Assembly (NCBI GenBank): GCA_028865725.1
Contig: JAGWJP010000003.1
Span: 1,697 to 65,696, forward strand
DNA length: 64,000 bases
Reading direction: 5' to 3'
Source of the DNA: Patescibacteria group bacterium
GTDB taxonomy: Bacteria; Patescibacteriota; Minisyncoccia; UBA6257; JACRHW01
Shown here: positions 12,287 through 63,196 of the stretch, in pieces
Numbering within the stretch: position 1 is the first letter of the stretch
Layout: every line of letters starts with the position of its first letter
Program-made: the position numbers and the translations under genes
Notes under the pieces: model-generated
Told to the model about the DNA's origin: nothing
Seen by the model: the letters and a program-made list of their open reading frames with translations, nothing else
The model's database searches: none

Positions 12287-12658
12287 CTACTTTTTCTGGA
12301 GATCGAGGCAAATAGAATTAATGCAATATCGTTTTCCTCCCCTCTCACGAGGCCCGTCATCAAACACGTGACCCAAATGTGCACCGCACTGTTTGCATAT
12401 CACCTCCGTTCTCCTCATGCCTCCGCTTGTATCTTCACGCAATTCAATATGCTCTCGGTTAGCGGGCTCGGAAAAACTGGGCCACCCTGTACCGGAATCA
12501 AACTTTGTATCTGAGGAAAACAGTTCGCTTCCGCAGACCGCACAAACATACATACCCCGTTCATGATTATTCCAGTACTTCCCTGTAAAAGGCGCCTCGG
12601 TACCCTGCTCACGTGCCACATGATAGAGCTCTTTTGATAACTCCTCATCTTTTTTCAT
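12287..12658 (-). CDS. msrB: peptide-methionine (R)-S-oxide reductase
   Basis: CxxC...GWPSF...CxxCGAHLGHVF SelR/MsrB signature. Confidence 0.9.
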   Translation of the reverse strand: MKKDEELSKELYHVAREQGTEAPFTGKYWNNHERGMYVCAVCGSELFSSDTKFDSGTGWPSFSEPANREHIELREDTSGGMRRTEVICKQCGAHLGHVFDDGPRERGGKRYCINSICLDLQKK

Positions 12659-12666
12659 AATAGTAG

Positions 12667-13206
12667 TTATTGTGTTAACAAATCATTAAATCGTTTTTTA
12701 AGCGTGTCGAGTTTTGGGTTGATAACGAGCGCGCAGTAGGGCTGGGTTTTGTTGCGCTCATAAAACCGTTTTTGATAATCTTCCGCCTCATAAAAAATAT
12801 CGAGTGGCTTGATTTCAGTAACCACGGGGAGACTAGATCCCGGCATATTGAGTTCGTGTATAAACGCACGCGCCTCATCTTTTTGTGTATCCAAAGTATA
12901 CAAAATAATCGAGCGGTATTCCGTGCCCACATCGTTACCCTGACGATTCAGTGTCGTAGGGTCGTGAGTCGCAAAAAACACGGTCAGAATATCATGAAAC
13001 GAGATAATCGCCGGATCAAACTCCACTTTTATTACCTCGGCATGCCCCGTTGCCCCTGAACATACTTCTTCATATGTAGGATTTTGGGTACTCCCTCCTG
13101 CATATCCCGGCGTCACAGCCCTCACTCCTTTTAATGAAGCAAACACCGCCTCGGTACACCAAAAACATCCCCCTCCCAACACAACAACTTCAGTATGCGT
13201 ATCCAT
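12667..13206 (-). CDS. msrA: peptide-methionine (S)-S-oxide reductase
   Basis: GGGCFWC active-site motif, GYAGG, msrA-msrB adjacent. Confidence 0.9.
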   Translation of the reverse strand: MDTHTEVVVLGGGCFWCTEAVFASLKGVRAVTPGYAGGSTQNPTYEEVCSGATGHAEVIKVEFDPAIISFHDILTVFFATHDPTTLNRQGNDVGTEYRSIILYTLDTQKDEARAFIHELNMPGSSLPVVTEIKPLDIFYEAEDYQKRFYERNKTQPYCALVINPKLDTLKKRFNDLLTQ

Positions 13207-14127: not shown

Positions 14128-14214
14128 GGAGAGGTGGCTGAGCGGCCGAAAGCGCCTCACTGCTAACGAGGTAGGGGGTAACACCCCTCGTGGGTTCGAA
14201 TCCCACCCTCTCCG
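14128..14214 (+). tRNA. tRNA-Ser (GCT)
   Basis: acceptor GGAGAGG/CCTCTCC, anticodon loop CTGCTAA, long variable arm, T-loop GGTTCGAATCC. Confidence 0.8.
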
Positions 14215-14250
14215 CATTGACATTTTTGTATCAGTGTGACCTTATTATTC

Positions 14251-14300
14251 GAGGTAGTGGGGCGGGTATCGGAGTGACCCATGCGGTTCGAGTCCTATTC
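14251..14300 (+). repeat. degenerate duplicate of the 3' half of tRNA-Ser (anticodon-stem 3' strand to ...TCTCCGCA)
   Basis: gaggtag(t)gggg...ggttcgagtcctattctctccgca aligns with tRNA-Ser 14170-14216 but T-stem no longer pairs. Confidence 0.6.
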
Positions 14301-14362
14301 TCTCCGCAAATGGGATTTCTGGTGAAAAAGCCTTGATGGGAACAGAGCTTTTTGGTTCTAAT
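14286..14362 (+). repeat. direct repeat copy 1 (ctctccgcaaatgggattt..aaaagccttgatgg..gctttttggttcta) containing a terminator-like hairpin
   Basis: roughly 65 nt at ~80% identity with 15079-15152; flanks HAD hydrolase gene. Confidence 0.6.
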
Positions 14363-14409
14363 ATAGAGCATCGTTGACCATATCGGAGGATTTCTGTATA
14401 GTGCATAGT

Positions 14410-15006
14410 ATGATAAAAGCAGTTATTTTTGACCTCAACGGGATTTTTATTCAAAGCCCAAAATTGAGTGATAGGTTTGAAAGCGATTTTCATATTCCTA
14501 CCACTGAATTTATTCCTAAATTGTCAGAAATAATGGATAATGTGCGACAACCTAATGCAGGTGCCGCATTCCAATACTGGAAACCCGCGTTGGAAGAGTG
14601 GAACGTCCATCTTACAGAACAGGAGTTCTGGGACTACTGGTTCGGGGCGGAAACAGTGTCCGAACAAATAGTGAACTTTGCGAGAGAATTAAAAAACAAG
14701 GGCATCCGCATTTTTGTCCTCTCTAACAACTTCAAAGAACGAGCCGACTACTATGGACACTATCCCTGGATGCACGAGGTGGTGGACAAAGCATATTTTT
14801 CTTGGCAGACAGGGTTTGTGAAACCCGATGAGAGAGCATGGATTTTGGTATGCTCCGAAAATAACCTCACGCCAGAAGAATGCCTTTACTTCGACGACCA
14901 GGTGAAAAACACCAATGCAGCAGAACACGTAGGCATGAAAGCTTTCATGTTCACAGGTGAAAACGAGTTACGAAAGACGGTAAACGAGTGCCTCAACGAA
15001 CATTGA
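14410..15006 (+). CDS. HAD-superfamily hydrolase (subfamily IA-like)
   Basis: motif I VIFDLNG (DxD), later FVLSNN and FDD; ORF begins 14374 but MIKAVIFDLNG at 14410 is the likelier start. Confidence 0.7.
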   Translation: MIKAVIFDLNGIFIQSPKLSDRFESDFHIPTTEFIPKLSEIMDNVRQPNAGAAFQYWKPALEEWNVHLTEQEFWDYWFGAETVSEQIVNFARELKNKGIRIFVLSNNFKERADYYGHYPWMHEVVDKAYFSWQTGFVKPDERAWILVCSENNLTPEECLYFDDQVKNTNAAEHVGMKAFMFTGENELRKTVNECLNEH

Positions 15007-15078
15007 GGCCTTTTCTTTTAGAAACTAGGAATATAAAACCGAGTGGTGGTATACAGGAAAAAGGTTCTAACCTCATCC

Positions 15079-15152
15079 ACTACTCTCCGCAAATGGGATT
15101 TTTGCTTGAAAAGCCTTGATGGTATCACGGCTTTTTGGTTCTAACCAAAAAG
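15079..15152 (+). repeat. direct repeat copy 2 with hairpin gaaaagcc/ggctttt + T-run
   Basis: matches 14286-14362; hairpin aaaagcc-N13-ggctttt followed by tgg ttc. Confidence 0.6.
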
Positions 15153-15209: not shown

Positions 15210-15656
15210 ATGTCACGACGCAATAGCCTGTGGGAAAAGGAGATTGGGAGCGTAGGGATTGATGCGGCACTTCTTGACCGTCTTCGATTTCATGGAGCTC
15301 TTACTGTCAGCGGAGTCATGGAATGCACCCAGCGTGGGAGACAGACCATCCTGAAACATTTCAAACGACTCGTAGAAAACAGGCAGGCACAATGGCGTCA
15401 GAAGGGAAATATGAGTACGATAACTCTCTTCAAGTATCCGCCCATTTCGCCCAGAACCCCTGTGAAAACAACTGAACCCAATATGGCTCTTCAAAGGGAG
15501 TGGACAGATGAGGGGTGGGAAAGTAAGAAGTGGGGTATCCGAGGTGAAGTTATCACCCATCACGATTCCCATGGTCTTTGCTATGAAGTAAGACATGAGG
15601 ACGGAACAAGAGGATATTATGACCCCTCCGAACTGGAAGTCATCTTGCTGGGATGA
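15210..15656 (+). CDS. hypothetical protein
   Basis: 148-aa ORF with strong SD AAGGAGG 7 nt upstream of ATG. Confidence 0.45.
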   Translation: MSRRNSLWEKEIGSVGIDAALLDRLRFHGALTVSGVMECTQRGRQTILKHFKRLVENRQAQWRQKGNMSTITLFKYPPISPRTPVKTTEPNMALQREWTDEGWESKKWGIRGEVITHHDSHGLCYEVRHEDGTRGYYDPSELEVILLG

Positions 15657-16122
15657 AGCAATCCCCATGAGAGAGCCGCATGCAAAAAAGTCTGATTTTT
15701 ATTTCAAACCGTGCGGAAAGGCTCGTGCATTCTTTACCACATGCGGTCACGTAGGGACGCTTCAATTTGACGTCGTGATACAAACAAACTGCAGAACGAT
15801 CACCCTGCTTAATCCCGAAGAAAGCCTTGCACGGCAAAAGAAAGGAATAAAAAACATAGATACGTATTGCGGGCGCTGCTATTTTGAATCAATCAAGAAA
15901 TTCGCAATCCGTTGCTGTTTCTGCGGAGATCCAATTCTTCCAGGCGATAGGGTGGGAACTTATAGTAAATCGTGTGCGCTCATTCGGAAAGAGATTACTA
16001 CCTTTGTGGAAGATGAAGTACTAGGATGCATGAAAGAAGGGTGTGGCTTCGCAGGTGCATTCGGAGGTTACTGGAGTGCGGAAGGATTCATCCCCGCATT
16101 TCCCCAAAAAGATACGACATAA
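15619..16122 (+). CDS. hypothetical Cys-rich protein (multiple CxxC pairs)
   Basis: ORF 15595-16122; AGAGGA SD-like before ATG 15619; CGRC..CCFCGD..CxxxxC pattern suggests metal binding; overlaps previous gene. Confidence 0.4.
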   Translation: MTPPNWKSSCWDEAIPMREPHAKKSDFYFKPCGKARAFFTTCGHVGTLQFDVVIQTNCRTITLLNPEESLARQKKGIKNIDTYCGRCYFESIKKFAIRCCFCGDPILPGDRVGTYSKSCALIRKEITTFVEDEVLGCMKEGCGFAGAFGGYWSAEGFIPAFPQKDTT

Positions 16123-16133
16123 AAAGATCAGGA

Positions 16134-16155
16134 CCGAGGATTCCTCGGTTTTTTG
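16134..16155 (+). terminator. rho-independent terminator
   Basis: ccgag-gattc-ctcgg followed by TTTTTTG, 12 nt after stop. Confidence 0.6.
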
Positions 16156-16276
16156 TTAGCCTTCAAAACGTATTTGTGCCATATGTAAAAAACTCAATGT
16201 GAGTAAGGACAGTAGAAAAAATAAATCATCATTTATTCGACCCATGCCATGTTACATGCTTTTTTAGACCATATGC

Positions 16277-18493
16277 TTAGATACATGAAAACCTGCATAA
16301 CCTTTCTATCTCTCGACCAAGCGCTCGTGCGTCCATGTTCCCCACACGATACTGTTCCGAGAAATGAATAAGACGTGTGTTCAGCTCATGCATGGTAAGA
16401 AAATTTTGATTCTTCTCTGCGAGGCCGTACGCCCAATGCGCCTTATTATTGAGAAATCTTAATCTATCAAATGCGTGCAAGAGCCAAAAAAGATCACGCA
16501 CAAACCTTCTCGTTTCGCGCACAAACCTTCCTTGATTCTGTACAGTAACCACCTCATTCTTCAAAAACTCCTCTCCTTGCGGAAGAGATGTGGGGGCGGA
16601 TTCAATGTGTGCAAACGCAGTCGTGCGGAGAAGCAGATCGAATGCTTTTTCTTCCGCATGCCGCGTACTATATAAATGCGCTATATTTCTGAAGAGTTCG
16701 GACATATCAAGCAAACTAGGATCGCTCCACCCAGGAAGCGGGGAATACAAATTCAAACTTACGTAGGAGGCACGTATTTTTTTAGACAGAATTTCGAATC
16801 GATGAGAAAGATCAATAATACGTTCCGTTTCGGAAGAAGCCAACGCGGCCTCCACATCATTAACCCCAAGAAGAGAGAGCATGCAACGGGCAAGATGCAT
16901 TTTCCGATATGCCACAAATCTCTTCTTCCAGCCCGCATCACTGATATGTTTAATTTCTGTGAGACGATGTAATACTTTCATGAGTCCCGTTCCTTCATGA
17001 CCAAATCGAGTACAAAGATGGTGGGAAGACGAAGTATAATAAGGACCCCGATATCTCACAAATGATGCGGACTCCAAATCGATAAGATGTCCGCTCAATG
17101 AGTAGTTTCCCATCGACCACGCACCGAGCATAAACCGATATGCAAAACACTCGGCGTCGAGCATAGCATACTCTCTCACCATGTTCTCAAAATCTATCGG
17201 AATCTCCGGATTCTGCTCTACATGACTCGGTCGATCGAGACTTCCTCCATCAACACGTACAAGGAGCGCGAGGGGAATCGGATTCGCATTCCACTTGCGC
17301 AAGACGCTATGCCTTAATGCAAAAAGAAGGGGATGGACCGGCACGCGCGGCATGAACCTATTAATCCAATGAGCAAGGATGACTCTGCGCATGGCCCCGA
17401 TTAATTCTGCCTCGCCGGTACTATGGCTCGGCACCGTACTCCGACAGAGGGTCGTTTTACCGACACCAAGGATATTATAGTCATCACCACAATAGACTGC
17501 TCTCCCTGAACCGATATTGCCGCTCAAACTGATGTCAGTTTTGTCTTTTTGTCGATCAGCATACACCAGCACACGATTCGCCGCGCTGCTTTCGTCATGA
17601 TGAAGCACAAGAGCGAACTGTCGAACATTTTGTAGGGTGGAATTTTTTTTCCACGCTGTGTTGAAATAAGTGTTATCCTTGTACACGATATCGTATTCAT
17701 CTGATAACAGGAGCCGTGCGCGTTGCGGAACAAAAAGAGAACGCCCTAATCTGTCCATAGCTGCAGGTGTCTGAACCTCAATAAAGCCAACCCGCGAATA
17801 TTTTGCCACCAGCCACCACCGAGGATGACTCTTCGCGTTGCATGAGGGAGGAGGACATGCGGTAACTCTATAATTACGATAGAACTCTTGTAATTTGCGG
17901 AGTACGACAACGCCGCTCTCTTCGCGCTTATAAAGCTTTTTTATAGCGAGTGCGCGACTTGGATACTGGCTTACTACTACATAATGAGGCCTCAAATGAC
18001 GAATGGCCGCTTTCCATACTGTGAGACTTTTTTTGATCCCCAACGCATAGTCATCATCTTTCAACGAGTCATACCATTTTTTAAGATTGGGAGCGACACG
18101 CGTCTTGCTGTGTTTTTCCTTGGAGAAAAAATTCCGATCTGCCCTATACGCCATCACCATATCATCAAATGGGTGGTTCGCCACCAATGCATCGACTCGC
18201 GTAGGAAGATCAACACCCACAACCACATCTTGAAGCAATTTACATACTAATCGTATTTTCGCGCGCGGTAATAGACGTTTATATGCCTGCTCAATATGTG
18301 CGGCCGCGCGCAGATCCGGTTCCACCACGTACACAATTCCTGCAAAATCAAGCAAGGAAAGCGCGCGACCAATTTTCGGTTCATAGCCCGGCGCTATCTC
18401 GACTACAACACCATTGCACGGCAACTCGATATGAAGAAAAATAGTATGCCAAATACGCGAAGTAGCAGGTACAAGCGTTTTCTCTTTAGACAT
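16277..18493 (-). CDS. large hypothetical protein, N-terminal amino-methyltransferase-like domain
   Basis: 738 aa; N-terminus VVVEIAPGYEPKIG (motif I-like) followed ~75 aa later by VANHPF (NPPF/NPPY-like motif IV); remaining ~600 aa unrecognised. Confidence 0.45.
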   Translation of the reverse strand: MSKEKTLVPATSRIWHTIFLHIELPCNGVVVEIAPGYEPKIGRALSLLDFAGIVYVVEPDLRAAAHIEQAYKRLLPRAKIRLVCKLLQDVVVGVDLPTRVDALVANHPFDDMVMAYRADRNFFSKEKHSKTRVAPNLKKWYDSLKDDDYALGIKKSLTVWKAAIRHLRPHYVVVSQYPSRALAIKKLYKREESGVVVLRKLQEFYRNYRVTACPPPSCNAKSHPRWWLVAKYSRVGFIEVQTPAAMDRLGRSLFVPQRARLLLSDEYDIVYKDNTYFNTAWKKNSTLQNVRQFALVLHHDESSAANRVLVYADRQKDKTDISLSGNIGSGRAVYCGDDYNILGVGKTTLCRSTVPSHSTGEAELIGAMRRVILAHWINRFMPRVPVHPLLFALRHSVLRKWNANPIPLALLVRVDGGSLDRPSHVEQNPEIPIDFENMVREYAMLDAECFAYRFMLGAWSMGNYSLSGHLIDLESASFVRYRGPYYTSSSHHLCTRFGHEGTGLMKVLHRLTEIKHISDAGWKKRFVAYRKMHLARCMLSLLGVNDVEAALASSETERIIDLSHRFEILSKKIRASYVSLNLYSPLPGWSDPSLLDMSELFRNIAHLYSTRHAEEKAFDLLLRTTAFAHIESAPTSLPQGEEFLKNEVVTVQNQGRFVRETRRFVRDLFWLLHAFDRLRFLNNKAHWAYGLAEKNQNFLTMHELNTRLIHFSEQYRVGNMDARALGREIERLCRFSCI

Positions 18494-19928
18494 AAATTTT
18501 TTGCGGGTAAAATGTCAATTGTGCGTTACCAGTGTTTGCTCCTTGCGCAATAGACTGATAGATATGAGAAAGTAGTTGGTTGGTAAATCCATGGAGTACA
18601 AATTCAGAATCATCGGGATTAGCTTCTATAAAATTGAGGAGGGTTACCTCGCGCGCATTCTCATTGTGACCGAAATAATACGCATCATTTCCGTGCAGTT
18701 CTCTCATTTCTTTTCCCATATTTATTTTTTGAAATACCTCCCCTCCTACGATCTTTTTATTTCTAAATACAAGAATCTCAAAATGATCATCGCTCCCCAC
18801 GCCCCCCTCCTCAACAACAGCAAGACTCGGTTCGTGTGACTGATACGAGTGAACGTGAATATTCAAAAAATGAGATACCTGAATAGTCACGCGCTCGTGC
18901 CTCACTCTCCCGTTTCCCTTATACGTATCCTCAGGCAACTCAAACCAGCTCCGACGCGAAAATGAGTTTTGTTGCAGATTAATGGAGCCGGTGGTAATCA
19001 CATTTGGACCCTGCATAAGTTGCGTCGAAATATAGGCATCAAGCTCTCCGAAATGGTCATATCGTATAGGATCGTAAGTACGGTAGAAATCACTAATCTC
19101 TTTTCGGTGAAATAATTTGTCATATGCCTTTTCATTGATTTGGTGAAAAAAGTCATTCGGCGTAAATTTTGCAGTAAACACCCGCACTGCGTCAGGCTGC
19201 GCATGAGGAAGAGCCGCATTCACTCCCGCAAGCCAAGCAAATAAATCTACAAAATGATAGCCGGAATGCATCAGTTTTCCATACCCATATTTGTAAGGAT
19301 GATTCTCCTTGCCAAATTCATGCGGCAAATTCCAGGCGCCGTCGGCATGATACACATCGATATACGAAACAGGGATTTCGAACTCAGACACAAAATCTTT
19401 GAGATAGTTTCGAATGAATGTGTATCCCTTATGATTTCTGCGCTGGCACATAATATAAAATTTCGCCCTACTGCCCTGGCGTGCATGCTCAAGTTCAAGA
19501 TAATCTTCATAGATTTGCCTGGCAGCACGTAAATCCGTGCTTGAATAGAGGGGTGCTGTAACAGGCTTGTCCATAAGAACATGAATGTTGTGCTGCAACG
19601 CCCACATCGCGTAGATTTTATGGACTTTGGGCTCGGTTGAAATAATTATTCCATCGATATGTTCTGTCTCTACAAGCCGCTCCAGTTCCTGCAACACAAG
19701 AGGATCAAGCGAGGTGCCGGCGCGATTTGATGCATTATCGGGAATAAAAAGGGTATGTTCGGGCTGGAGGTCGCGCTCAGAAAGATATGTATCTATCTTC
19801 GCAGCCTGACTTTCGAGCTCGATAAGCAGTTTAAGGCTAATTCCGAAACGCGCCCGATACTTCTCTAGGAAGGGGTAATAGATACGTTTTGCATGGGGGC
19901 CAAGGCCGACAAGAATATAGTTTTTCAT
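18486..19928 (-). CDS. Gfo/Idh/MocA-family NAD(P)-dependent oxidoreductase with long C-terminal extension
   Basis: MKNYILVGLGPHAKRIY Rossmann start, IDGIIISTEPKVHKIYAMWALQHNIHVLMDKPV consensus EKP-like segment; ORF runs to 19970 but MKNY at 19928 is the likelier start. Confidence 0.65.
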   Translation of the reverse strand: MKNYILVGLGPHAKRIYYPFLEKYRARFGISLKLLIELESQAAKIDTYLSERDLQPEHTLFIPDNASNRAGTSLDPLVLQELERLVETEHIDGIIISTEPKVHKIYAMWALQHNIHVLMDKPVTAPLYSSTDLRAARQIYEDYLELEHARQGSRAKFYIMCQRRNHKGYTFIRNYLKDFVSEFEIPVSYIDVYHADGAWNLPHEFGKENHPYKYGYGKLMHSGYHFVDLFAWLAGVNAALPHAQPDAVRVFTAKFTPNDFFHQINEKAYDKLFHRKEISDFYRTYDPIRYDHFGELDAYISTQLMQGPNVITTGSINLQQNSFSRRSWFELPEDTYKGNGRVRHERVTIQVSHFLNIHVHSYQSHEPSLAVVEEGGVGSDDHFEILVFRNKKIVGGEVFQKINMGKEMRELHGNDAYYFGHNENAREVTLLNFIEANPDDSEFVLHGFTNQLLSHIYQSIAQGANTGNAQLTFYPQKIYV

Positions 19929-20028
19929 ACACCTCCAGTGTAGGCGCGCATGCCGCGGGGGGCAATACATTATGTCGAATATTTAGACATAAAAAAGAGG
20001 GCATTGCGCCCTCAAGACGGTTGGGATA

Positions 20029-20607
20029 CTACGCGCGTGGCAAAAGTGTTTCAAAAAATTTTGCTAGATATTGTGTGGCTTCACACAACGCGCGGTTGTA
20101 GAGACGAACAATCCTGACACGTTCATTCAAATGTGCACGAAACACCTCATACATATGCAACAGAAACTCATCCTCATGCTTTTGCTCATCACGAATCACC
20201 TCGGGATCCAATGCGCGCATTTTCGCATACCGATCAAGAGCGCGACGTGCAATGATGGCGTTAAACGGAGCATCGATGTGCAAAAGACACACCTCGCTGA
20301 TTTTCTTGCTTTGGGCGATTTGCGCAAGTCTAGAGTAATCAATCTGAGGAATATATCCATCCGGACGGCGCACGGCATAGTGCCAGTGAATCACTACCAC
20401 CGAATTACGGGGCGCGCGAAGAATGGTGTGCACGATAAGCTGCTCCACCTCTTCGGCCGTCTTCATCTTTTTTGTGCCATAGACATAACGCCGAAACAAA
20501 GCCCCTGCATCCCGCATCACAAATTGCCCCTTAAATCTTTTTTGAAGAAACGAAATCAATGTACTCTTTCCCACGCCCTGCACACCGCCCACAAACACCA
20601 CTTTCAT
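20029..20607 (-). CDS. P-loop NTPase / small-molecule kinase-like protein
   Basis: Walker A GGVQGVGKST at N-terminus, 192 aa, AAA_33/NMP-kinase-like size. Confidence 0.55.
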   Translation of the reverse strand: MKVVFVGGVQGVGKSTLISFLQKRFKGQFVMRDAGALFRRYVYGTKKMKTAEEVEQLIVHTILRAPRNSVVVIHWHYAVRRPDGYIPQIDYSRLAQIAQSKKISEVCLLHIDAPFNAIIARRALDRYAKMRALDPEVIRDEQKHEDEFLLHMYEVFRAHLNERVRIVRLYNRALCEATQYLAKFFETLLPRA

Positions 20608-20725
20608 ACGACACTCCTTTATGAAGGTTCTGGCTCGAGTGTACTACGAGCGTCATAATGCACAATACTATCTGTCTAATTTTTTGACAATATCTTGACA
20701 ACACGGCTCTTATAGTTTATGATTC

Positions 20726-21469
20726 GTGCATATGGATGACCTTATAGACATCATAAAAAAACTGGGGCTCACCACAAAGGCAGCTCGTATTTACTTGGCA
20801 GCGTTAGAGCTCGGCGAGGCTTCAGTACAACAACTCGCACAAAAGTCCAAGCTGAAACGGACGACATTATATTACATTCTTGATGAACTCATTGACGCGG
20901 GGATCCTCATTCCTACAAGAACCGGAAAAAAACTTTATTATGTCGCTGAAAAACCAAGCACGCTCCTTAAAAATACAAAGGAGAACATCGCCCATTTTGA
21001 ACACTCATTATCCCTTTTAGAAGAGCGGGGGGCCTATATGAGCAACCGCCCGCGGACATACTTTCTCTACGGCACTGCCGGCTTCAAGCAGGTGTGGGAT
21101 ATGATTCTCGACTCTCCAGAAAAGATGTATCGGATTATTACAGAGGGGGAGAATTTTTTGGATTATGTACGGGAAAAGTATATCCTTGATGAAATCATCA
21201 GCAAAAAGAAGCAACTCGGCGTCTCCAGCAGACAACTTATCAGGAACTCCGCGTATGCCAAGCAAATCGTTGCGAAAGATGCGCGGGAAAATAGAACCTC
21301 CCGCATGTTGCCTGCGATCTACAAATTGCCGTTTACAGAAATCATTACTGACCATTTTGTGGCATGCATCTCCTCACGCCATGCCAATATGATTTTTGTC
21401 GTAGAAAATGCGGCATTCGCCAAAATGCGACAATCTATTTTTGAAATGTTGTGGGACTCTGTCCGCTAA
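20726..21469 (+). CDS. TrmB-family (sugar-responsive) transcriptional regulator
   Basis: N-terminal wHTH LGLTTKAARIYLAALELGEASVQQLAQKSKLKRTTLYYILDELIDAGIL characteristic of TrmB; divergent from the kinase gene. Confidence 0.7.
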   Translation: MHMDDLIDIIKKLGLTTKAARIYLAALELGEASVQQLAQKSKLKRTTLYYILDELIDAGILIPTRTGKKLYYVAEKPSTLLKNTKENIAHFEHSLSLLEERGAYMSNRPRTYFLYGTAGFKQVWDMILDSPEKMYRIITEGENFLDYVREKYILDEIISKKKQLGVSSRQLIRNSAYAKQIVAKDARENRTSRMLPAIYKLPFTEIITDHFVACISSRHANMIFVVENAAFAKMRQSIFEMLWDSVR

Positions 21470-59590: not shown

Positions 59591-60034
59591 TTAAGGATTA
59601 TAAGGCCTAATTGTTACATAACGATTATCACCCTCTCCCTTACTCTCCGTAATAATATCAGGATGTACGGCAAGTTCAAGGTGAATAATGCGCCGTTCAA
59701 AGGGTTTCATGGGAGGAAGTCTAACTTCTTTTTTGGTCGTCACTACTTGTCGGGCTATTTTTCTAATATATTCCTTCAATTTTCCTTCCCGTTCACTCCT
59801 GTAATTATTAATATCAATAGAAAATACAGTGTCAATATTACTGTGTTTTGCGAGAAGTTTTAGTACTCTCTCGATATCAGAAATGTTTTCTCCATTTTTT
59901 CCAATCATAAACCCCGCGTCGTCAAGAGATATCTGTATTTTTGCAGCAGTACCCAGAAAGACCGCACTTACCTGTGGGTTCTGGATTCCCATATTATGTA
60001 AAAACTCTTCGATGAGTGTTTGGAGCTGTCCCAT
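59591..60034 (-). CDS. jag: Jag/KhpB-like RNA-binding protein (KH + R3H)
   Basis: IGKNGENI KH GxxG loop and C-terminal R3H (RRIIHLEL); adjacent to yidC. Confidence 0.8.
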   Translation of the reverse strand: MGQLQTLIEEFLHNMGIQNPQVSAVFLGTAAKIQISLDDAGFMIGKNGENISDIERVLKLLAKHSNIDTVFSIDINNYRSEREGKLKEYIRKIARQVVTTKKEVRLPPMKPFERRIIHLELAVHPDIITESKGEGDNRYVTIRPYNP

Positions 60035-60055
60035 ACCTCACAAATTTCTTGTTCC

Positions 60056-60772
60056 TTATATTTGTTTTATCTCCGTTTCAAGAGATTCTGACTGAATAAT
60101 ACGTTTTGTTACTACGTATTCACCAATGGAGAATACCGTACTTGCGATCCAGTACAATCCTACCACTGCAGGTAGTTTTACCAAAATAATCAACGTTAGT
60201 AAAGGAAACACAAAAATCATAGCCGACATCATTTGGGCCGCTTCTCCTCCCGCAGTATTCGGCATAAAGAATTTTGACTGTATAAACTGAAGAAGCGCGG
60301 CAACAAGTGCCACTTCAATAAGAGGTGTGTTTACATCGAAAAGACCTAAAAAGGTATGATGGACAGGAAGAGTAATATGAATAAATGAATAGAGGGAGGC
60401 CTGAACATTAGAGGAAAATGCCTTCATACTGATACGATAGAGTGTAATAAGAAGCACTACTTGTACAATGATAAAAAGAAAACCTGAAAAAGGATTAATT
60501 TTGTGCCTTTCATACAAGTGCATCATAGCCTTCACCTGGGCTTCTTTGTCGTCTTTATGCTCTTTTTGTATTTTTGCCATCTCAGGCTGAAGCTTGCTTA
60601 GTACCATCTGGTAGCGCATATTTTTGTGAAAAATAGGAAAAATAGCCAAGCGCACAACAATAGTAAACAAGATAATAGCAATGCCCGCATCTGAAAAAGC
60701 AGCGGTGTGGTAAATAAAAAATAAAAGATTGGTAAGCGGTCTTACTATAATTTCATTATAGAGAAAAACCAT
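60056..60772 (-). CDS. yidC: membrane protein insertase YidC (short form)
   Basis: GIAIILFTIVVRLAIFPIFHKNMRYQMVLSKLQPEMAKIQ conserved TM2-loop region of YidC/Oxa1; 238 aa. Confidence 0.85.
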   Translation of the reverse strand: MVFLYNEIIVRPLTNLLFFIYHTAAFSDAGIAIILFTIVVRLAIFPIFHKNMRYQMVLSKLQPEMAKIQKEHKDDKEAQVKAMMHLYERHKINPFSGFLFIIVQVVLLITLYRISMKAFSSNVQASLYSFIHITLPVHHTFLGLFDVNTPLIEVALVAALLQFIQSKFFMPNTAGGEAAQMMSAMIFVFPLLTLIILVKLPAVVGLYWIASTVFSIGEYVVTKRIIQSESLETEIKQI

Positions 60773-60787
60773 AACATTATTTCTTGG

Positions 60788-61144
60788 TTAAACTAACAAT
60801 TTTGCCCGACGAAAGAGCGTGGTAAGTTCTTGCCTCCGTTTTTCATGTTTCATGGTATACACGACAGAAGAAGTAACTCTTATTACTATATCATATCCCA
60901 TGACAAGAGAGGGGCGTAATTCTTCCATAACACCACGCATCGCCCTTTTTATATAGTTTCGTTCTACTGCTTTCTTATTTATTTTTGCCCCCACCACTAC
61001 TGTTGCTCGCGTACACATCAGATTATTTTCTTTGATATATAACGCGAAAAAGGGTGAGGATACCCTTTTACCCGACACAAAAACCTTTTTCACCCCATCG
61101 TTTCTTAAAAGACGCTGTATCTTTTTCTCCACAGCATTAAACAT
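60788..61144 (-). CDS. rnpA: ribonuclease P protein component
   Basis: K.V.RN.IKR..R RNR motif region; start overlaps rpmH stop (TAATG). Confidence 0.7.
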   Translation of the reverse strand: MFNAVEKKIQRLLRNDGVKKVFVSGKRVSSPFFALYIKENNLMCTRATVVVGAKINKKAVERNYIKRAMRGVMEELRPSLVMGYDIVIRVTSSVVYTMKHEKRRQELTTLFRRAKLLV

Positions 61145-61281
61145 TAAGCGCTTAAAGAAGCACGTCCTTTGCGACGCCTGTTCTGTAACACCCGCTTTCC
61201 CCCAGGAGTTCGCGATCGTTTTAAAAATCCATGAGTGCGCGCGCGTTTTCTTTTTTTGGGTTGATATGTTCTTTTTGGCAT
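61144..61281 (-). CDS. rpmH: 50S ribosomal protein L34
   Basis: hand translation of the reverse strand gives [45 protein letters not shown] (45 aa), below the 60-aa ORF-track cutoff. Confidence 0.85.
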
Positions 61282-61440
61282 AAAAAATAATACAGTTCAG
61301 TTCATTATTATGTGTATTTGCAGTATATCTTTTTCTCTGTTTTTTTTCAATCCCACTGCCAAAACAACATCGTTATACGAATAAGCCATTGGCATATAAG
61401 CCTGGGGGGGTTTTGTTTCTTAAATTTTCGAAAAAAATAT

Positions 61441-61449
61441 CTATCCACA
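61441..61449. promoter_or_regulatory. DnaA box (cTATCCACA) in rpmH-dnaA intergenic region
   Basis: 8/9 match to TTATCCACA. Confidence 0.4.
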
Positions 61450-61546
61450 GCTTCTTCACAACTTCTCCATTGGTCAAGACTTGTTCGCGTCACAAACGAT
61501 GCTATACTGCAGATATCACGTAAGTATTCTATCTTTGTTTTTTATG

Positions 61547-62914
61547 AACTGCGACGAATTATGGCAAAAGATTCTAGGAGAACTAGAACTCCAAATTTCG
61601 AAAGCTAATTTTATTACGTGGCTAAAGCACAGCTCCCTCACAGAAGTCAATCAGGGCGTTGCAAAAATATCTCTCAAATCAAATTTTGCAAAAGAATGGG
61701 TAGAAAATAAATATCACAAACAAATACTTCATCTTCTCCATTATTATGACAACTCAATACGCAATGCACATTATGTTATTGTCTCAGCCGCAACGATTTC
61801 TCCGCTCGTTTCTTCACAAAAAACATTTGCCGCTGCAGAAGAACTCCAGTTAGAAATTGCCGAGCAGGGAATTGATCCCGTTACCAACCTTAACGCGAAA
61901 TATAATTTCGATCATCTTGTAATAGGAGCCACTAATGAACTCGCCGCAGCGGCATGTTACGCTATTATTCAAGAAGTGGGTAAAAAATATAACCCGTTAT
62001 TTATCTATGGGGGAGTAGGAGTGGGAAAAACACATCTTCTTCAGGCAACGGGAAATGAAATTGTTAAAAAATACCACAATCAAATAAAAGTACTTTACGT
62101 CACGTCGGAAAAATTCACAAGCGATGTCGTCACTGCGTTACAAACAAAAGGAATCGAACGCATTGATGCCATGAAACAAAAATATCGTAATGCGGATGTT
62201 CTTATTATTGATGACATCCAGTTTATTGCTGGACGAGAACGTACGGAAGAAGAATTCTTTAATACTTTCAATGCTCTTTATAATAACAACAAACAGATTA
62301 TCCTTTCTTCTGATCGCCCCCCGCGCGCACTTCCTATTATTGCAGAACGCTTAAAATCTCGTTTTGAGGGGGGAATGCTTGCCGATATTCAATTCCCCGA
62401 ATATGAAATGCGACTCGCTATTCTTAAAAATAAACTCCTTGATAAACAATGCGATCTACCTGATTACGTAATAGAAACTATTGCACAAAAAGTTCAAAAA
62501 AACATACGAGAATTAGAAGGTATGCTTACCAAAGTTATTTTCATCACACGTCAAAAAGGACTTCCTCCCGAACAAGAGGAATTAGAGAAGGTACTTCGTG
62601 TGTATTCCGATACGTCTGTACGCATGATTTCTCCTGCAAAAATAATAAAAACTACTGCTGATTTTTTCGAAATTAATGAAAAAGATGTAATAGGCCATGA
62701 AAGAAAAAAAGAAGTAGTTCTTCCCCGTCAAGTTGCCATGTATCTTTTAAGAAAAGAATTAAAAGCTTCCTATCCTTTTATTGGTGCTAAATTTGGAAAC
62801 AGAGATCACACCACCGCTATTCATGCTTACAACAAAATTTCAAATGAAGTAGCAAAAAATAATAATTTGAATCGAATTATTTCGGAAATTATTGAACGCA
62901 TTAATAATAATTAA
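61547..62914 (+). CDS. dnaA: chromosomal replication initiator DnaA
   Basis: N-terminal LWQKIL, Walker A GGVGVGKTHLL, Walker B VLIIDDIQF, C-terminal DnaA box-binding HTT (DHTTAIHAY); ORF opens 61481. Confidence 0.9.
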   Translation, partial: NCDELWQKILGELELQISKANFITWLKHSSLTEVNQGVAKISLKSNFAKEWVENKYHKQILHLLHYYDNSIRNAHYVIVSAATISPLVSSQKTFAAAEELQLEIAEQGIDPVTNLNAKYNFDHLVIGATNELAAAACYAIIQEVGKKYNPLFIYGGVGVGKTHLLQATGNEIVKKYHNQIKVLYVTSEKFTSDVVTALQTKGIERIDAMKQKYRNADVLIIDDIQFIAGRERTEEEFFNTFNALYNNNKQIILSSDRPPRALPIIAERLKSRFEGGMLADIQFPEYEMRLAILKNKLLDKQCDLPDYVIETIAQKVQKNIRELEGMLTKVIFITRQKGLPPEQEELEKVLRVYSDTSVRMISPAKIIKTTADFFEINEKDVIGHERKKEVVLPRQVAMYLLRKELKASYPFIGAKFGNRDHTTAIHAYNKISNEVAKNNNLNRIISEIIERINNN

Positions 62915-63196
62915 TAAATGTGCGTAGGGGGAGAAGTATAATCTCATAATGTGGAAAATGTGGGGAAAAGTGTGGGTATAACTTATGAGTGGTTATAAGA
63001 ATAATGAGAGGATAATATTTCAAAAAATAAAGAAATAGATATTTTTCGGATATTATCCCCATAGTGGTTTATCTTTATCATCATATTATCCACAGGAATT
63101 TGTGTACTTTTTTTCTTGAACTGTACTCAAAATTAAACTATTTCCCCTTATTTTTTATAGTTATTACTATTACTACTAATTAGAATTATTACCATT
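62915..63196. promoter_or_regulatory. candidate oriC: DnaA-box cluster plus AT-rich tract between dnaA and dnaN
   Basis: boxes tgtggaaaa (62950), tgtggggaaaa (62959), tgtgggtataa (62971), ttatcccca (63053), ttatccaca (63087, perfect); AT-rich 63100-63196. Confidence 0.6.

What the first reader, a model, noticed from the sequence alone, without database searches (positions are those of the whole stretch)
15210..21469. Uncharacterised six-gene cluster beside tRNA-Ser: 738-aa methyltransferase-like protein + extended Gfo/Idh/MocA oxidoreductase + P-loop kinase + TrmB regulator
Two small unknown proteins lie on the plus strand after the tRNA-Ser and HAD/repeat region (15210, strong SD; 15619, Cys-rich). 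A convergent minus-strand unit follows: a 738-aa protein (16277-18493), a 480-aa Gfo/Idh/MocA-type dehydrogenase with ~150 extra C-terminal residues (18486-19928) and a 192-aa Walker-A kinase-like protein (20029-20607). Adjacent genes overlap or abut, so they probably form an operon. A TrmB-family regulator is transcribed divergently from a 118-bp spacer containing the direct repeat ttgacaatatcttgacaa. The dehydrogenase, kinase and TrmB combination suggests a sugar or cyclitol-modifying pathway, but the large protein has no recognisable catalytic domain beyond an N-terminal amino-methyltransferase-like fold. This could be a novel small-molecule, nucleotide-sugar or DNA/RNA-modification system. 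It also sits where genomic islands usually insert.
Basis: partly seen in the sequence, partly recalled or inferred. Interest (0 to 1): 0.6.

Follow-up and report, generated by a model that had tools for sequence, protein, structure and literature searches.

The report
Methyltransferase–SelO fusion enzyme regulon in Patescibacteria
The large "unknown" protein is a rare fusion of a methyltransferase-like domain with a divergent SelO-type nucleotide-transferring (kinase-fold) enzyme; in one group of ultra-small bacteria it is co-regulated with a sugar-type dehydrogenase and a nucleotide-kinase-like protein through a shared DNA operator, and its chemistry is still unknown.

Summary
All six ORFs exist, but only four form a conserved unit. 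The two small plus-strand ORFs recur only in contigs of the same strain.

The 738-aa protein does have a recognisable catalytic domain. Residues ~240-738 are a divergent SelO/YdiU-type kinase-fold nucleotidyltransferase (Foldseek 5e-8; profile-profile E 8e-32 over 403 columns). It keeps the metal-binding Asn/Asp and the phosphate-binding Arg pair but lacks the canonical Lys/Glu pair. Residues 1-235 have a class I methyltransferase fold with an (S/N)HPF motif.

The family is rare: 175 representatives among 1.84 billion proteins. It splits into three clades by context: Gfo-linked, cNMP-domain-fused, and radical-SAM-linked.

In the window's clade, a ~475-aa Gfo/Idh/MocA dehydrogenase lies directly upstream in 11 of 13 informative loci. 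An archaeal-adenylate-kinase-like P-loop gene and a divergent TrmB-like regulator usually accompany it.

The genes form two transcription units, not one operon. Each is preceded by the same conserved palindrome, TGTCnAAAAnTTnGACA, and a conserved terminator follows the P-loop gene.

No evidence supports a genomic island or DNA modification.

My best reading is an inducible pathway that adds a nucleotidyl and a methyl group to, and oxidises, a sugar- or nucleotide-type substrate. The main rival is protein or NAD+-directed regulation of the dehydrogenase.

The parts
20726..21469 (+). TrmB-family winged-helix regulator (247 aa from GTG 20726; conserved start probably ATG 20732, 245 aa), transcribed divergently from the enzyme genes
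   Evidence: Pfam TrmB 1.7e-9, 37.8 bits against a cut-off of 25.6, over residues 11-73 only. Orthologues at 45-73% identity sit in the same divergent position in all cluster loci. A promoter-like TTGACA-17-TATGAT (11 of 12) lies at 20695-20723. The NCBI record annotates 245 aa.
20663..20689 (-). Operator/promoter element O1 upstream of the P-loop gene: TGTCAAAAAATTAGACAGATAGTATTG (palindrome TGTC-N9-GACA followed by a -35-like TTG)
   Evidence: The 27-nt pattern occurs only twice in the 64-kb window, with 0 expected. It is conserved in the same spacer of L001, L002, L004, L006, L019 and L020. The core motif is present only in cluster-bearing loci.
20684..20701 (+). It equals the left half of the O1 palindrome plus an additional upstream half-site, and also supplies the -35 of the trmB promoter
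   Evidence: consensus GTCAAATnTTGTCnAAAAnTTAGACA.
20029..20607 (-). 192-aa P-loop protein, a distant full-length homologue of archaeal-type adenylate kinase (NMP-kinase-like); forms its own transcription unit
   Evidence: Profile against PDB: 1ki9 adenylate kinase, E 1.3e-7, residues 2-178. All 9 orthologues hit NCBIfam PRK04040 (best 3.7e-11) but far below its 155-bit cut-off. Invariant GGxxGxGK and HWHYAV..P.GYIPQ.
19997..20013 (-). Intrinsic-terminator-like hairpin GAGGGCGCAATGCCCTC followed by TTTTTT, immediately after the P-loop gene
   Evidence: A hairpin plus T-run is present at the same place in L001, L002, L006, L019 and L020 (alignment A4).
19963..19989 (-). Operator/promoter element O2 upstream of the Gfo gene: TGTCTAAATATTCGACATAATGTATTG
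   Evidence: The consensus TGTCGAAAAnTTCGACAAAATGTATTG is conserved in all seven aligned loci.
18486..19928 (-). 480-aa Gfo/Idh/MocA-fold NAD(P)-type dehydrogenase belonging to an uncharacterised, highly conserved ~475-aa subfamily
   Evidence: Pfam PF01408, 7.8e-9. AF2 pLDDT 87.7, pTM 0.90. Foldseek hits GFOR, scyllo-inositol DH, DgpA, glucuronide-3-DH and NAD-dependent glycosidases at E 1e-14 to 3e-16 over the full length. Invariant GLGPH, DKP and MHSGYH..D. No NCBIfam equivalog is reached.
17789..18493 (-). N-terminal module (residues 1-235) of the 738-aa protein: class I SAM-methyltransferase-like Rossmann fold
   Evidence: Foldseek hits NSun6, MmtN, Bud23, BpumL, MtfA, NTMT1 and Hen1 at about E 1e-3, prob 1.0. 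Invariant E32-x-APG-x-E-x-KI, E58(PD) and (S/N)H107-P-F-D-D-M. It is a separate adjacent gene in L020, L008, L032, L033 and L035. No sequence-level MTase hit.
16280..17776 (-). C-terminal module (residues ~240-738) of the 738-aa protein: divergent SelO/YdiU-type kinase-fold nucleotidyltransferase with a helical C-terminal region
   Evidence: Foldseek hits 6eac SelO at 5e-8 and YdiU 6k20/6lna/9jyn. hhalign against E. coli SelO plus bridge sequences gives Prob 99.9, E 8.2e-32, 403 columns. 7 of 29 relatives hit Pfam SelO weakly. N463, D472, R413 and R421 are invariant.
16133..16149 (-). Possible terminator hairpin downstream of the 738-aa gene, between convergent genes (weak T-run)
   Evidence: Consensus match only; conservation was not tested.

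Best explanation
Shown:
- The locus is a conserved regulon of Patescibacteria (Paceibacteria-type CPR).
- A divergently transcribed TrmB-family regulator faces two transcription units, and each is preceded by the same palindromic operator, TGTCnAAAAnTTnGACA.
- Unit 1 encodes an archaeal-adenylate-kinase-like P-loop protein and ends at a conserved terminator.
- Unit 2 encodes a Gfo/Idh/MocA sugar-type NAD(P) dehydrogenase translationally coupled (8-nt overlap) to a bifunctional protein. That protein is a class I methyltransferase-like domain fused to a divergent SelO-type kinase-fold domain.

Inferred:
- The SelO-like domain binds an NTP in the SelO 'flipped' orientation. The two phosphate-holding arginines and the Asn/Asp metal site are kept. 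It transfers the nucleotidyl (AMP or UMP) group to an acceptor and releases pyrophosphate.
- The fused methyltransferase methylates the same acceptor or the newly added group. WbdD uses the same logic when it caps a glycan with methyl-phosphate.
- The acceptor is most likely a sugar-, nucleoside- or nucleotide-sugar-type small molecule or glycan. The Gfo-like enzyme oxidises it at a ring hydroxyl, and the NMP-kinase-like protein phosphorylates it or recycles the nucleotide by-product.
- The TrmB-like protein senses the substrate and switches both promoters together.
For: Architecture.

SelO residues retained (with the residue roles from PMC8097203):
- R413 and R421 match Ec R170 and R177 (Ps R176 and R183).
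- N463 and D472 match Ec N247 and D256 (Ps N253 and D262).
- The Gly-rich GSGR motif is kept.

Fusion and split: MTase and SelO-like are fused across distant representatives and split into adjacent genes in several loci.

Gene linkage: Gfo lies directly upstream in 11 of 13 informative loci of the window's clade, and context tracks phylogeny.

Regulation: one shared operator sits at both promoters, only in cluster loci, with 0 expected by chance. A terminator follows the P-loop gene.

Partner proteins:
- The Gfo-like protein's nearest structures are all sugar or cyclitol oxidoreductases. It keeps the cofactor and catalytic motifs. In Microgenomates it sits with a second Gfo gene, an SDR and a xylose-isomerase-like TIM gene.
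- The P-loop protein is NMP-kinase-like.

Precedents:
- Kinase-fold plus MTase enzymes (WbdD, NoeA/Lani_1194) act on glycans or sugar-bearing signals (PMC9758233).
- The SelO-family member MchC acts in microcin maturation (PMC3281104).

Distant clade: those members sit beside three radical-SAM genes, a natural-product-like context.
Against: - No substrate is identified, and nothing here distinguishes a small-molecule acceptor from a protein acceptor.
- Canonical SelO/YdiU modifies proteins.
- The sister clade carries two cNMP-binding domains and has no metabolic partner genes. That fits a signalling or regulatory enzyme.
- Partner genes differ radically between clades (Gfo plus kinase, radical SAM, NAD synthetase). 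A regulatory module explains this more easily than one fixed pathway does.
- The canonical SelO Lys/Glu pair is missing at the aligned positions (Leu342 and Arg370), so even nucleotidyl transfer is inferred.
- The AF2 model is of low confidence exactly at the catalytic loop, residues 457-490.
- The MTase assignment rests on fold (E about 1e-3) and motifs only, and motif I is atypical.
- The Gfo-like family exists without any SelO-like partner in other phyla.
Confidence: 0.42

Rival explanations
1. Regulatory protein-modifying enzyme. The MTase-SelO-like protein is a writer of post-translational marks (AMPylation or UMPylation plus methylation), like canonical SelO/YdiU. Its target in this clade is the co-translated Gfo-like dehydrogenase and/or the kinase-like protein. 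In the sister clade the same core is controlled allosterically by cyclic nucleotides instead of transcriptionally by TrmB.
For: - Homology with SelO runs over the whole domain.
- SelO and YdiU AMPylate or UMPylate proteins (PMC8097203; abstract of PMC13355359).
- The sister clade is fused to two cNMP-binding domains, and one giant ORF has a receiver domain upstream. The cNMP clade has no recurring metabolic neighbours.
- Variable partner enzymes across clades fit a module that regulates different enzymes.
- Some MTase fold hits are protein MTases, such as VCP-KMT and NTMT1.
Against: - A dedicated local regulator with a shared operator on three enzyme genes looks like an inducible metabolic pathway.
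- The SelO Lys/Glu pair and the residue equivalent to YdiU D246 are not conserved. This suggests altered chemistry or a different acceptor.
- No target is identifiable.
- The Gfo-like family functions without this partner elsewhere.
Confidence: 0.27
2. NAD+-directed control. The SelO-like domain is an NAD+ pyrophosphatase (NAD+ to NMN plus AMP), or the reverse NMN adenylyltransferase. It gates its co-translated NAD(P)-dependent dehydrogenase by changing local cofactor supply, and the adenylate-kinase-like protein recycles the AMP produced.
For: - A 2026 commentary reports that SelO hydrolyses NAD+ to NMN and AMP, and that SelO/YdiU bind and restrain NAD-dependent dehydrogenase complexes (PMC13391479).
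- YdiU-NAD structures are among the top fold hits (9jyn, 9jym, 9l29).
- The gene is translationally coupled to an NAD(P)-type dehydrogenase.
- The co-regulated protein is AK-like.
- One relative is fused to glutamine-dependent NAD synthetase (P0208).
- There is a semi-conserved Cys in the 'KLCxLP' motif near the end of the module, and the window protein ends ...LCRFSCI.
Against: - The reported NADase needs the C-terminal Cys/Sec-Ser-Ser tail. Here the Cys is not in that position, and in the cNMP clade about 300 residues follow it.
- The model gives the conserved fused methyltransferase no role.
- The NAD synthetase fusion is a single representative.
- The basis is a commentary on one study.
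Confidence: 0.12
3. RNA or nucleotide end-modification. The SelO-like domain acts like the nidovirus NiRAN domain (NMP or RNA transfer) and the fused methyltransferase methylates the product, giving a cap-like or repair-like modification of RNA. The P-loop protein would act as a polynucleotide or nucleotide kinase.
For: - NiRAN is a SelO-like kinase-fold domain that works with methyltransferases in capping (PMC8863163 abstract).
- MTase fold hits include RNA MTases (NSun6, Bud23, TrmR, Hen1).
- The (S/N)HPF motif resembles the (D/N/S)PP(Y/F) motif of amino-group methyltransferases (the motif comparison is from my own knowledge).
- The partner is NMP-kinase-like.
Against: - No RNA-binding domain, ligase or phosphatase partner is present.
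- The Gfo-type dehydrogenase has no role in this model.
- No Rfam element lies in the locus.
- TrmB-type local regulation is unusual for RNA processing.
- The case is purely analogical.
Confidence: 0.07
4. Horizontally acquired genomic island or defence/DNA-modification cassette inserted at tRNA-Ser.
For: - tRNA-Ser lies 2 kb away.
- att-like duplications of the tRNA 3' end exist nearby.
- The cluster is patchily distributed, with different flanks in different genomes.
Against: - GC is 0.44-0.48 across the locus against a window mean of 0.453, and GC3 and codon usage lie within the window's spread.
- The 69-nt repeats bracket only the HAD gene, and no third copy exists in the window.
- No integrase is present.
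- No PADLOC hits for the enzymes and no phage DNA match for the small ORFs.
- Other loci have different tRNAs at varying distances, or none.
- Context follows the protein phylogeny, which suggests mainly vertical inheritance within a clade.
Confidence: 0.04

Closest known systems
SelO / YdiU protein adenylyltransferase (Pfam PF02696; PDB 6eac, 6k20, 6lna)
   Same: - Same kinase-like fold and full-length profile homology (E 8e-32).
- Conserved Gly-rich GxGR motif, the two phosphate-binding arginines, and the metal-binding Asn and DFG-like Asp.
- The implied mechanism is flipped-NTP binding with nucleotidyl transfer.
   Different: - Only 12-13% identity, and the window protein does not reach the Pfam threshold.
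- The beta3 Lys and alphaC Glu are replaced at the aligned positions by Leu342 and Arg370. An invariant Lys lies four residues later, in GVGKT.
- The YdiU D246 position is Gly or Ser.
- No C-terminal Cys/Sec-x-x tail.
- Always combined with a methyltransferase-like module, either fused or as an adjacent gene.
- Different gene context.
MchC/MceJ branch of the SelO family (microcin H47/E492 maturation)
   Same: It is a SelO-family member working inside a biosynthetic gene cluster on a non-canonical acceptor (PMC3281104). This parallels the radical-SAM-linked distant clade and a small-molecule or peptide role.
   Different: - No microcin precursor, glycosyltransferase or export genes here.
- No direct sequence comparison was made.
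- The details of the MceIJ reaction come from my own knowledge.
WbdD and the NoeA/Lani_1194 and Lcin_0519 families (kinase-fold plus class I methyltransferase bifunctional enzymes)
   Same: - Two-domain logic, with a methyltransferase and a kinase-fold domain in one polypeptide of about 700 aa.
- They are known or proposed to decorate glycans or secreted sugar-bearing signals.
- They have conserved gene neighbours (PMC9758233).
   Different: - The kinase domains there are not SelO-type. They keep the catalytic-loop Asp equivalent to PKA D166 (PMC9758233); that they transfer phosphate is known for WbdD (my own knowledge) and only predicted for the two Legionella families.
- No detectable homology was found here, and WbdD is not among the top fold hits.
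- The resemblance is an analogy, not membership.
Nidovirus NiRAN domain with cap methyltransferases
   Same: A SelO-like kinase-fold nucleotidyltransferase acts together with SAM methyltransferases on one substrate.
   Different: - That system is a viral RNA-capping machine with a protein (nsp9) intermediate.
- No polymerase or RNA-handling partners here.
- No sequence relationship was tested.
Gfo/Idh/MocA sugar dehydrogenases (GFOR, scyllo-inositol DH, glycoside 3-dehydrogenases DgpA/BT_2158, UDP-GlcNAc 3-DH)
   Same: - Same two-domain fold over the whole protein.
- GxGxxA cofactor motif, (E/D)KP motif and a conserved His in the substrate domain.
   Different: - About 100-150 residues longer.
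- 10-15% identity to solved structures.
- No equivalog model is reached.
- It has its own invariant motifs (ENHPYKYGYGKLMHSGYH, NLQQNSFSRR, YKGNGRVRHE).
- The substrate is unknown.
Archaeal-type adenylate kinase (AdkA, PRK04040; PDB 1ki9, 1kht, 1nks)
   Same: - Same length.
- P-loop, the central H..(K/R).P.GY(L/I)P segment and the RR..D lid-like segment align over the full length.
   Different: - 34 bits against a curated cut-off of 155.
- Found in bacteria, co-regulated with the cluster, and absent from one cluster locus (L030).
- Probably a specialised NMP or metabolite kinase, not the housekeeping Adk.

Membership tests
SelO/YdiU (PF02696) | Protein-kinase-like fold matching solved SelO/YdiU structures | tested here: met
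   Foldseek: 6eac_A at E 5.2e-8, prob 1.0, TM(target) 0.56. All nine top hits are SelO/YdiU.
SelO/YdiU (PF02696) | Sequence or profile homology across the domain | tested here: met
   hhalign of the family profile against E. coli SelO plus 11 bridge sequences: Prob 99.9, E 8.2e-32, 403 columns, Ec residues 6-475.
SelO/YdiU (PF02696) | Reaches the Pfam SelO model threshold | tested here: not met
   No Pfam hit for the window protein. 7 of 29 relatives hit weakly, best 3.7e-6. No PDB sequence hit.
SelO/YdiU (PF02696) | Metal-binding Asn and DFG-like Asp (Ps N253/D262; Ec N247/D256) | tested here: met
   N463 and D472 align to them and are invariant in 29 sequences.
SelO/YdiU (PF02696) | Arg pair holding the buried gamma-phosphate of flipped ATP (Ps R176/R183) | tested here: met
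   R413 and R421 align to Ec R170 and R177 and are invariant. Roles are from PMC8097203.
SelO/YdiU (PF02696) | beta3 Lys and alphaC Glu (Ps K113/E136) | tested here: not met
   The aligned positions are Leu342 and Arg370. A near-invariant K346 four residues downstream (GVGKT) may substitute, but this was not tested structurally.
SelO/YdiU (PF02696) | C-terminal redox Cys/Sec tail (CxxC/Uxx at the end) | tested here: inconclusive
   The window protein ends LCRFSCI. There is a semi-conserved Cys in 'KLCxLP', but not at the -3 position, and the cNMP clade has about 300 further residues after it.
SelO/YdiU (PF02696) | AMPylation or UMPylation activity | not testable with these tools
   Needs biochemistry.
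Class I SAM-dependent methyltransferase | Rossmann-like MTase fold | tested here: met
   Foldseek hits to many SAM-MTases over about 170-280 columns, E 7e-4 to 7e-3, prob about 1.0. The N-terminal module has pLDDT of about 90.
Class I SAM-dependent methyltransferase | Motif I (E/D)xGxGxG SAM loop | tested here: inconclusive
   Invariant E32-x-A-P-G36-x-E-x-K-I, with only one Gly. This is an atypical loop.
Class I SAM-dependent methyltransferase | Acidic residue at the end of strand 2 and a motif IV catalytic loop | tested here: inconclusive
   Invariant E58 (with P59 and D60 at 95%) and invariant H107-P-F-D-D-M preceded by S or N. This resembles (D/N/S)PP(Y/F). The positions were not verified on a structure.
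Class I SAM-dependent methyltransferase | Hit to any curated MTase family model or solved MTase by sequence | tested here: not met
   No hit in Pfam, NCBIfam or PDB, even with a profile.
Gfo/Idh/MocA oxidoreductase | N-terminal NAD(P) Rossmann domain (PF01408) with GxGxxG/A | tested here: met
   36.7 bits against a cut-off of 24. Invariant G8-L-G10-P-H-A.
Gfo/Idh/MocA oxidoreductase | Whole-protein fold, including the alpha/beta substrate domain | tested here: met
   Foldseek E 3e-16 to 1e-13 against GFOR, TM_0425, DgpA, scyllo-inositol DH and others. Alignments span about 480-510 columns.
Gfo/Idh/MocA oxidoreductase | EKP motif and catalytic His/Asp in the substrate domain | tested here: met
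   Invariant D120-K121-P122 (a variant of EKP) and invariant H221-S-G-Y-H225-x-x-D228. The assignment of roles is by analogy, from my own knowledge.
Gfo/Idh/MocA oxidoreductase | Membership of a characterised equivalog (IolG, glycoside 3-DH, UDP-GlcNAc 3-DH, levoglucosan DH) | tested here: not met
   Best is 20.8 bits against cut-offs of 330-750.
Archaeal-type adenylate kinase (PRK04040) | Full-length similarity with a P-loop | tested here: met
   Profile against 1ki9: 1.3e-7 over residues 2-178. 9 of 9 orthologues match.
Archaeal-type adenylate kinase (PRK04040) | Reaches the curated equivalog cut-off | tested here: not met
   34.4 bits against 155. It is therefore NMP-kinase-like, not Adk.
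TrmB-family sugar-sensing regulator | N-terminal TrmB winged helix | tested here: met
   PF01978, 37.8 bits against 25.6.
TrmB-family sugar-sensing regulator | C-terminal sugar-binding effector domain, or equivalog-level match to TrmB/TrmBL1 | tested here: not met
   Only residues 1-89 match. NF047390 scores 22.8 bits against 650. No Pfam hit for residues 90-247.
tRNA-linked genomic island | Bracketing att repeats, an integrase and deviant composition | tested here: not met
   The repeats bracket only the HAD gene. No integrase appears among the ORFs. GC, GC3 and codon usage are typical.
Known anti-phage defence systems (PADLOC) | Any component model hit for the enzymes | tested here: not met
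   No hit for the 738-aa or Gfo proteins. Only HTH-type hits for the regulator.

The most novel reading that the evidence does not exclude
The MTase-SelO-like fusion could catalyse a reaction not yet described for the kinase fold. One option is installing a methylated nucleotidyl (or methyl-phospho) group on a sugar, nucleotide, RNA end or protein. Another is acting as a SelO-type NAD+ pyrophosphatase or adenylyltransferase that gates its co-translated dehydrogenase. The loss of the canonical Lys/Glu pair would reflect a non-hydroxyl acceptor such as a phosphate, carboxylate or amine. The three clade-specific contexts (TrmB/Gfo/kinase regulon, cNMP fusion, radical-SAM cluster) would then be three ways of deploying one new catalytic module.
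Probability: 0.22. Interest if true: 0.82.

Novelty: new variant of a known kind. Interest (0 to 1): 0.6.

Why it matters
SelO-type pseudokinases overturned the idea that inactive-looking kinases do nothing. Their known chemistries keep growing: AMPylation, UMPylation, NiRAN RNA transfer and NAD+ hydrolysis.

This finding is a rare, deeply divergent SelO branch. It is always paired with a methyltransferase-like module. It has lost the hallmark Lys/Glu pair but keeps the metal and pyrophosphate sites.

In Patescibacteria, which have minimal metabolism and depend on hosts, this branch has its own regulator, its own operator and two dedicated partner enzymes. That makes it a compact, testable system of four proteins and one 17-bp palindrome. 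It could reveal a new kinase-fold reaction, and it could show what these episymbionts sense and modify.

Tried and rejected
- **Direct family and structure-sequence searches of the 738-aa protein.** Pfam, NCBIfam and PDB phmmer/hmmsearch found nothing. Homology appeared only through fold search and a bridged profile-profile alignment.
- **hhalign against a single E. coli SelO sequence.** Not significant (E 0.14), although it aligned the catalytic loop correctly.
- **Profile of the N-terminal module against PDB.** Only noise.
- **Word-indexed homology search for the P-loop protein.** Two hits only. I used orthologues from fetched loci instead.
- **Rfam scan of the locus.** Only the tRNA, so there is no riboswitch in the conserved 100-bp gap. 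The conservation there is an operator/promoter plus a terminator.
- **PADLOC.** No defence system.
- **Phage DNA search for the small ORFs.** No match.
- **Island hypothesis.** Rejected.
- **Search for a recurring extra regulon member.** Extra operator copies sit downstream of the big gene in L004 (before an MBL-fold hydrolase) and in L033 (before a membrane protein). They are not consistent.
- **Neighbours of the cNMP clade.** No recurring partner.
- **Giant ORFs as informative fusions.** Considered, but they string together unrelated regulators and enzymes, so I did not use them as functional evidence.
- **Literature search for Pur10-type Gfo enzymes acting on nucleotides.** Nothing usable.

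Full report
**1. Observation**

tRNA-Ser(gct) is at 14128-14215. The window matches a Patescibacteria MAG, GCA_028868355.1, whose 738-aa protein is annotated 'hypothetical'.

Pfam confirms a Gfo/Idh/MocA Rossmann domain, a P-loop (AAA_17) protein and a TrmB winged helix. It finds nothing for the 738-aa protein or the two small ORFs. The repeat TTGACAATATCTTGACAA is real and unique in the window.

**2. The 738-aa protein**

A homology search found 53 relatives, essentially all from Patescibacteria metagenome bins, in three length classes:
- about 700-770 aa;
- about 1040-1070 aa, with cNMP-binding domains;
- about 500-530 aa, covering only the C-terminal two thirds.

The alignment shows two modules. 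The C-terminal module has invariant motifs GNxGSGRA, GVGKT, HSTG, RR, LDRPSHxE and GAWSxxNYSLxGxxIDLE.

Seven of 29 members weakly match Pfam SelO. An AlphaFold2 model has pLDDT 81 but is low at residues 457-490. Its best PDB matches are P. syringae SelO and E. coli YdiU (E 5e-8 to 9e-6). After those come many class I SAM-methyltransferases for the N-terminal ~230 residues (E about 1e-3).

A profile of the C-terminal module included distant homologues. I aligned it to E. coli SelO plus eleven 'bridge' sequences, which match both families. The result was Prob 99.9, E 8.2e-32 over 403 columns, covering SelO residues 6-475.

Residue mapping, using the roles given in PMC8097203:
- **Kept:** the Gly-rich GxGR motif; R413 and R421 (Ps R176 and R183, the gamma-phosphate binders); H424 and E426; N463 and D472 (Ps N253 and D262, the metal site). 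All are invariant.
- **Not kept at the aligned positions:** the beta3 Lys is Leu342, with an invariant Lys346 four residues later. The alphaC Glu is Arg370. YdiU D246 is Gly or Ser.

So the domain is a true but divergent SelO relative. It is probably catalytically competent, with a remodelled phosphate pocket.

The N-terminal module has invariant E32-x-APG-x-E-x-KI, E58-P-D and (S/N)-H107-P-F-D-D-M. The last resembles the (D/N/S)PP(Y/F) loop of amino-group methyltransferases; that comparison is from my own knowledge. The module has no sequence-level match to any MTase family or structure.

**3. Size and diversity of the family**

An exhaustive profile search of 1.84 billion representatives found only 175 proteins at E <= 1e-3, of which 99 are at E <= 1e-30.

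The MTase-like module is fused N-terminally in many distant representatives. It is a separate gene immediately upstream in L020, L008, L032, L033 and L035. This is a classic fusion/split pattern and argues that the two modules work together.

Other fusions include NAD synthetase with a CN-hydrolase domain (P0208) and radical-SAM domains (P0214, P0220).

Distant members (27-32% identity; Riflebacteria and others) sit divergently from three radical-SAM genes, two of them B12-binding.

**4. Gene neighbourhood**

I examined about 40 loci from reference genomes and metagenomes and several look-ups. The order trmB (divergent) / P-loop / Gfo / MTase-SelO-like recurs in the window, L001, L002, L004, L006, L019, L020 and L026. 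L030 has it without the P-loop gene. L032 and L035 show Gfo at the contig edge.

The partners are absent from all cNMP-fused loci and from L008, L018 and L021.

A distance tree of the SelO-like domains separates three clades that coincide with context:
- Gfo-linked, with 11 of 13 informative loci positive;
- cNMP-fused;
- radical-SAM-linked.

The two small plus-strand ORFs (15210-16122) occur only in contigs of the same strain, so they are not part of the unit.

**5. Regulation**

I aligned the spacers from seven loci. The same element appears upstream of the P-loop gene and again upstream of the Gfo gene: the palindrome TGTCnAAAAnTTnGACA followed by AAATGTATTG.

In the window it occurs exactly twice, at 20663-20689 and 19963-19989 on the minus strand, with 0 expected. 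Among fetched loci it occurs only where the cluster is present.

A GC-rich hairpin plus T-run follows the P-loop gene in the window (20013-19997) and in the other loci.

The minus-strand genes are therefore two transcription units: the P-loop gene alone, and Gfo plus MTase-SelO-like with an 8-nt overlap. They share one operator, presumably the site of the divergently encoded TrmB-like protein; that last step is inference.

No Rfam family matches the locus apart from the tRNA.

**6. Partner proteins**

*Gfo-like protein.* It belongs to a highly conserved ~475-aa subfamily: 1288 hits, 58% mean column identity across phyla, all starting at MKNYIL. This subfamily also occurs in Anaerolineae, Microgenomates and a Chryseobacterium without SelO-like or P-loop partners.

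Its model is confident (pLDDT 87.7, pTM 0.90). The model matches sugar and cyclitol oxidoreductases over its full length: GFOR, scyllo-inositol DH, 1,5-anhydrofructose reductase, the glycoside 3-dehydrogenases DgpA and glucuronide-3-DH, and NAD-dependent glycosidases. The extra length is therefore not an independent C-terminal domain. No characterised equivalog is reached.

*P-loop protein.* It is a distant, full-length relative of archaeal-type adenylate kinases but falls far below the equivalog cut-off.

**7. Island and DNA-modification ideas**

- GC, GC3 and codon usage of the cluster genes lie within the window's range.
- The tRNA-Ser 3' end is partly duplicated at 14285-14308. A 69-nt repeat brackets only the HAD gene (14293-14361 and 15076-15144). 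No further copy exists in the window.
- Other loci have different tRNAs nearby, or none.
- There are no PADLOC hits for the enzymes and no phage DNA similarity for the small ORFs.

These ideas are not supported.

**8. Mechanism**

*Shown:* the architecture, the retained and lost SelO residues, the fusion/split linkage of the MTase and SelO-like modules, the clade-specific linkage to Gfo, P-loop and TrmB genes, and the shared operator and terminator.

*Inferred:* nucleotidyl transfer with pyrophosphate release, methyl transfer to the same acceptor, a sugar- or nucleotide-type acceptor, and TrmB-mediated co-induction.

Precedents:
- Kinase-fold plus MTase bifunctional enzymes (WbdD, NoeA/Lani_1194, Lcin_0519) decorate glycans (PMC9758233).
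- MchC is a SelO-family maturation enzyme (PMC3281104).
- NiRAN works with cap MTases (PMC8863163).

Main rival: a regulatory protein-modifying enzyme. It is favoured by canonical SelO function, by the cNMP-fused sister clade that has no metabolic partners, and by the variability of partners among clades.

A related rival follows the 2026 report that SelO/YdiU hydrolyse NAD+ and restrain NAD-dependent dehydrogenases they bind (PMC13391479). It fits the translational coupling to an NAD(P) dehydrogenase, the AK-like partner and the NAD-synthetase fusion. It gives the methyltransferase no role, and it lacks the required C-terminal Cys tail.

**9. Novelty**

I found no description of a SelO-type domain fused to a methyltransferase, nor of this regulon. 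The 2012 SelO survey reported no real multidomain SelO proteins.

This is a new variant of a known kind. It is a divergent, rare SelO branch with a new obligatory partner domain, dedicated partners and an operator. The superfamily and the individual folds are already known.

Noticed in passing
window 14193-15144: The 3' end of tRNA-Ser (14193-14216) is duplicated at 83% identity at 14285-14308. A 69-nt direct repeat (14293-14361 and 15076-15144, 84% identity) that begins with that tRNA-like fragment brackets the single HAD-hydrolase gene (14374-15006). This looks like an att-type scar around a 783-bp one-gene cassette. No third copy exists in the window.
   Followed up: partly
L036 2-16243 (+) and L031 1-10536 (+): Two metagenome contigs carry the MTase-SelO-like-cNMP module inside giant ORFs. 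L036 has no stop codon of any kind in one frame over 16.2 kb, while the other frames have 125-369. The flanks contain domains that are normally separate proteins: response-regulator receiver, a second class I MTase, class II aldolase, CsrA x2 and LacI HTH. They match the giant representatives P0176 (7620 aa), P0177 (4071 aa) and P0250 (5515 aa). These polyprotein-like genes are unexplained.
   Followed up: partly
L010-L015 (e.g. L012 4922-9043, minus strand): Distant SelO-like homologues (Riflebacteria and unclassified MAGs), sometimes in tandem pairs, sit divergently from a conserved triad of radical-SAM genes. Two of these have B12-binding domains.
   Followed up: partly
P0208 (1548 aa, from the representative search): A single representative fuses the MTase-like and SelO-like modules to a CN-hydrolase plus NAD-synthase (glutamine-dependent NAD synthetase) C-terminal part.
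   Followed up: partly
L004 12142-12158; L033 about 2395: Extra copies of the TGTC-N9-GACA operator lie just downstream of the MTase-SelO-like gene. In L004 the copy precedes a small ORF and a 346-aa MBL-fold hydrolase. In L033 it precedes a 141-aa membrane protein. These may be lineage-specific additions to the regulon.
   Followed up: partly
L002 5668-5743: ARAGORN calls a 'tRNA-Stop' with anticodon tta (it would read UAA) in a Yanofskybacteria contig, about 1.3 kb from the trmB orthologue.
   Followed up: no
window 60000-64000: GC falls to 0.32-0.38 and GC3 to 0.22-0.35 in the last three ORFs. The window means are 0.45 and 0.43. This region may be of foreign origin.
   Followed up: no
L021 9661-11558; L044 10424-10993: A 189-aa small GTPase follows the SelO-like gene in two loci of the cNMP clade. 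In L021 a class II aldolase-domain gene follows as well. An aldolase II domain is also found downstream in the giant ORF of L036.
   Followed up: no
L019 10334-12103; L020 2076-3580: Nucleotide-handling genes (an HD/PDEase-like phosphodiesterase, PPK2, NUDIX and MBL-fold hydrolases) lie near the cluster in some loci, but not consistently.
   Followed up: no
window 12287-13206: msrB and msrA (methionine sulfoxide reductases) lie about 3 kb from the cluster. Canonical SelO is linked to redox stress, but this adjacency was not seen in the other loci.
   Followed up: no
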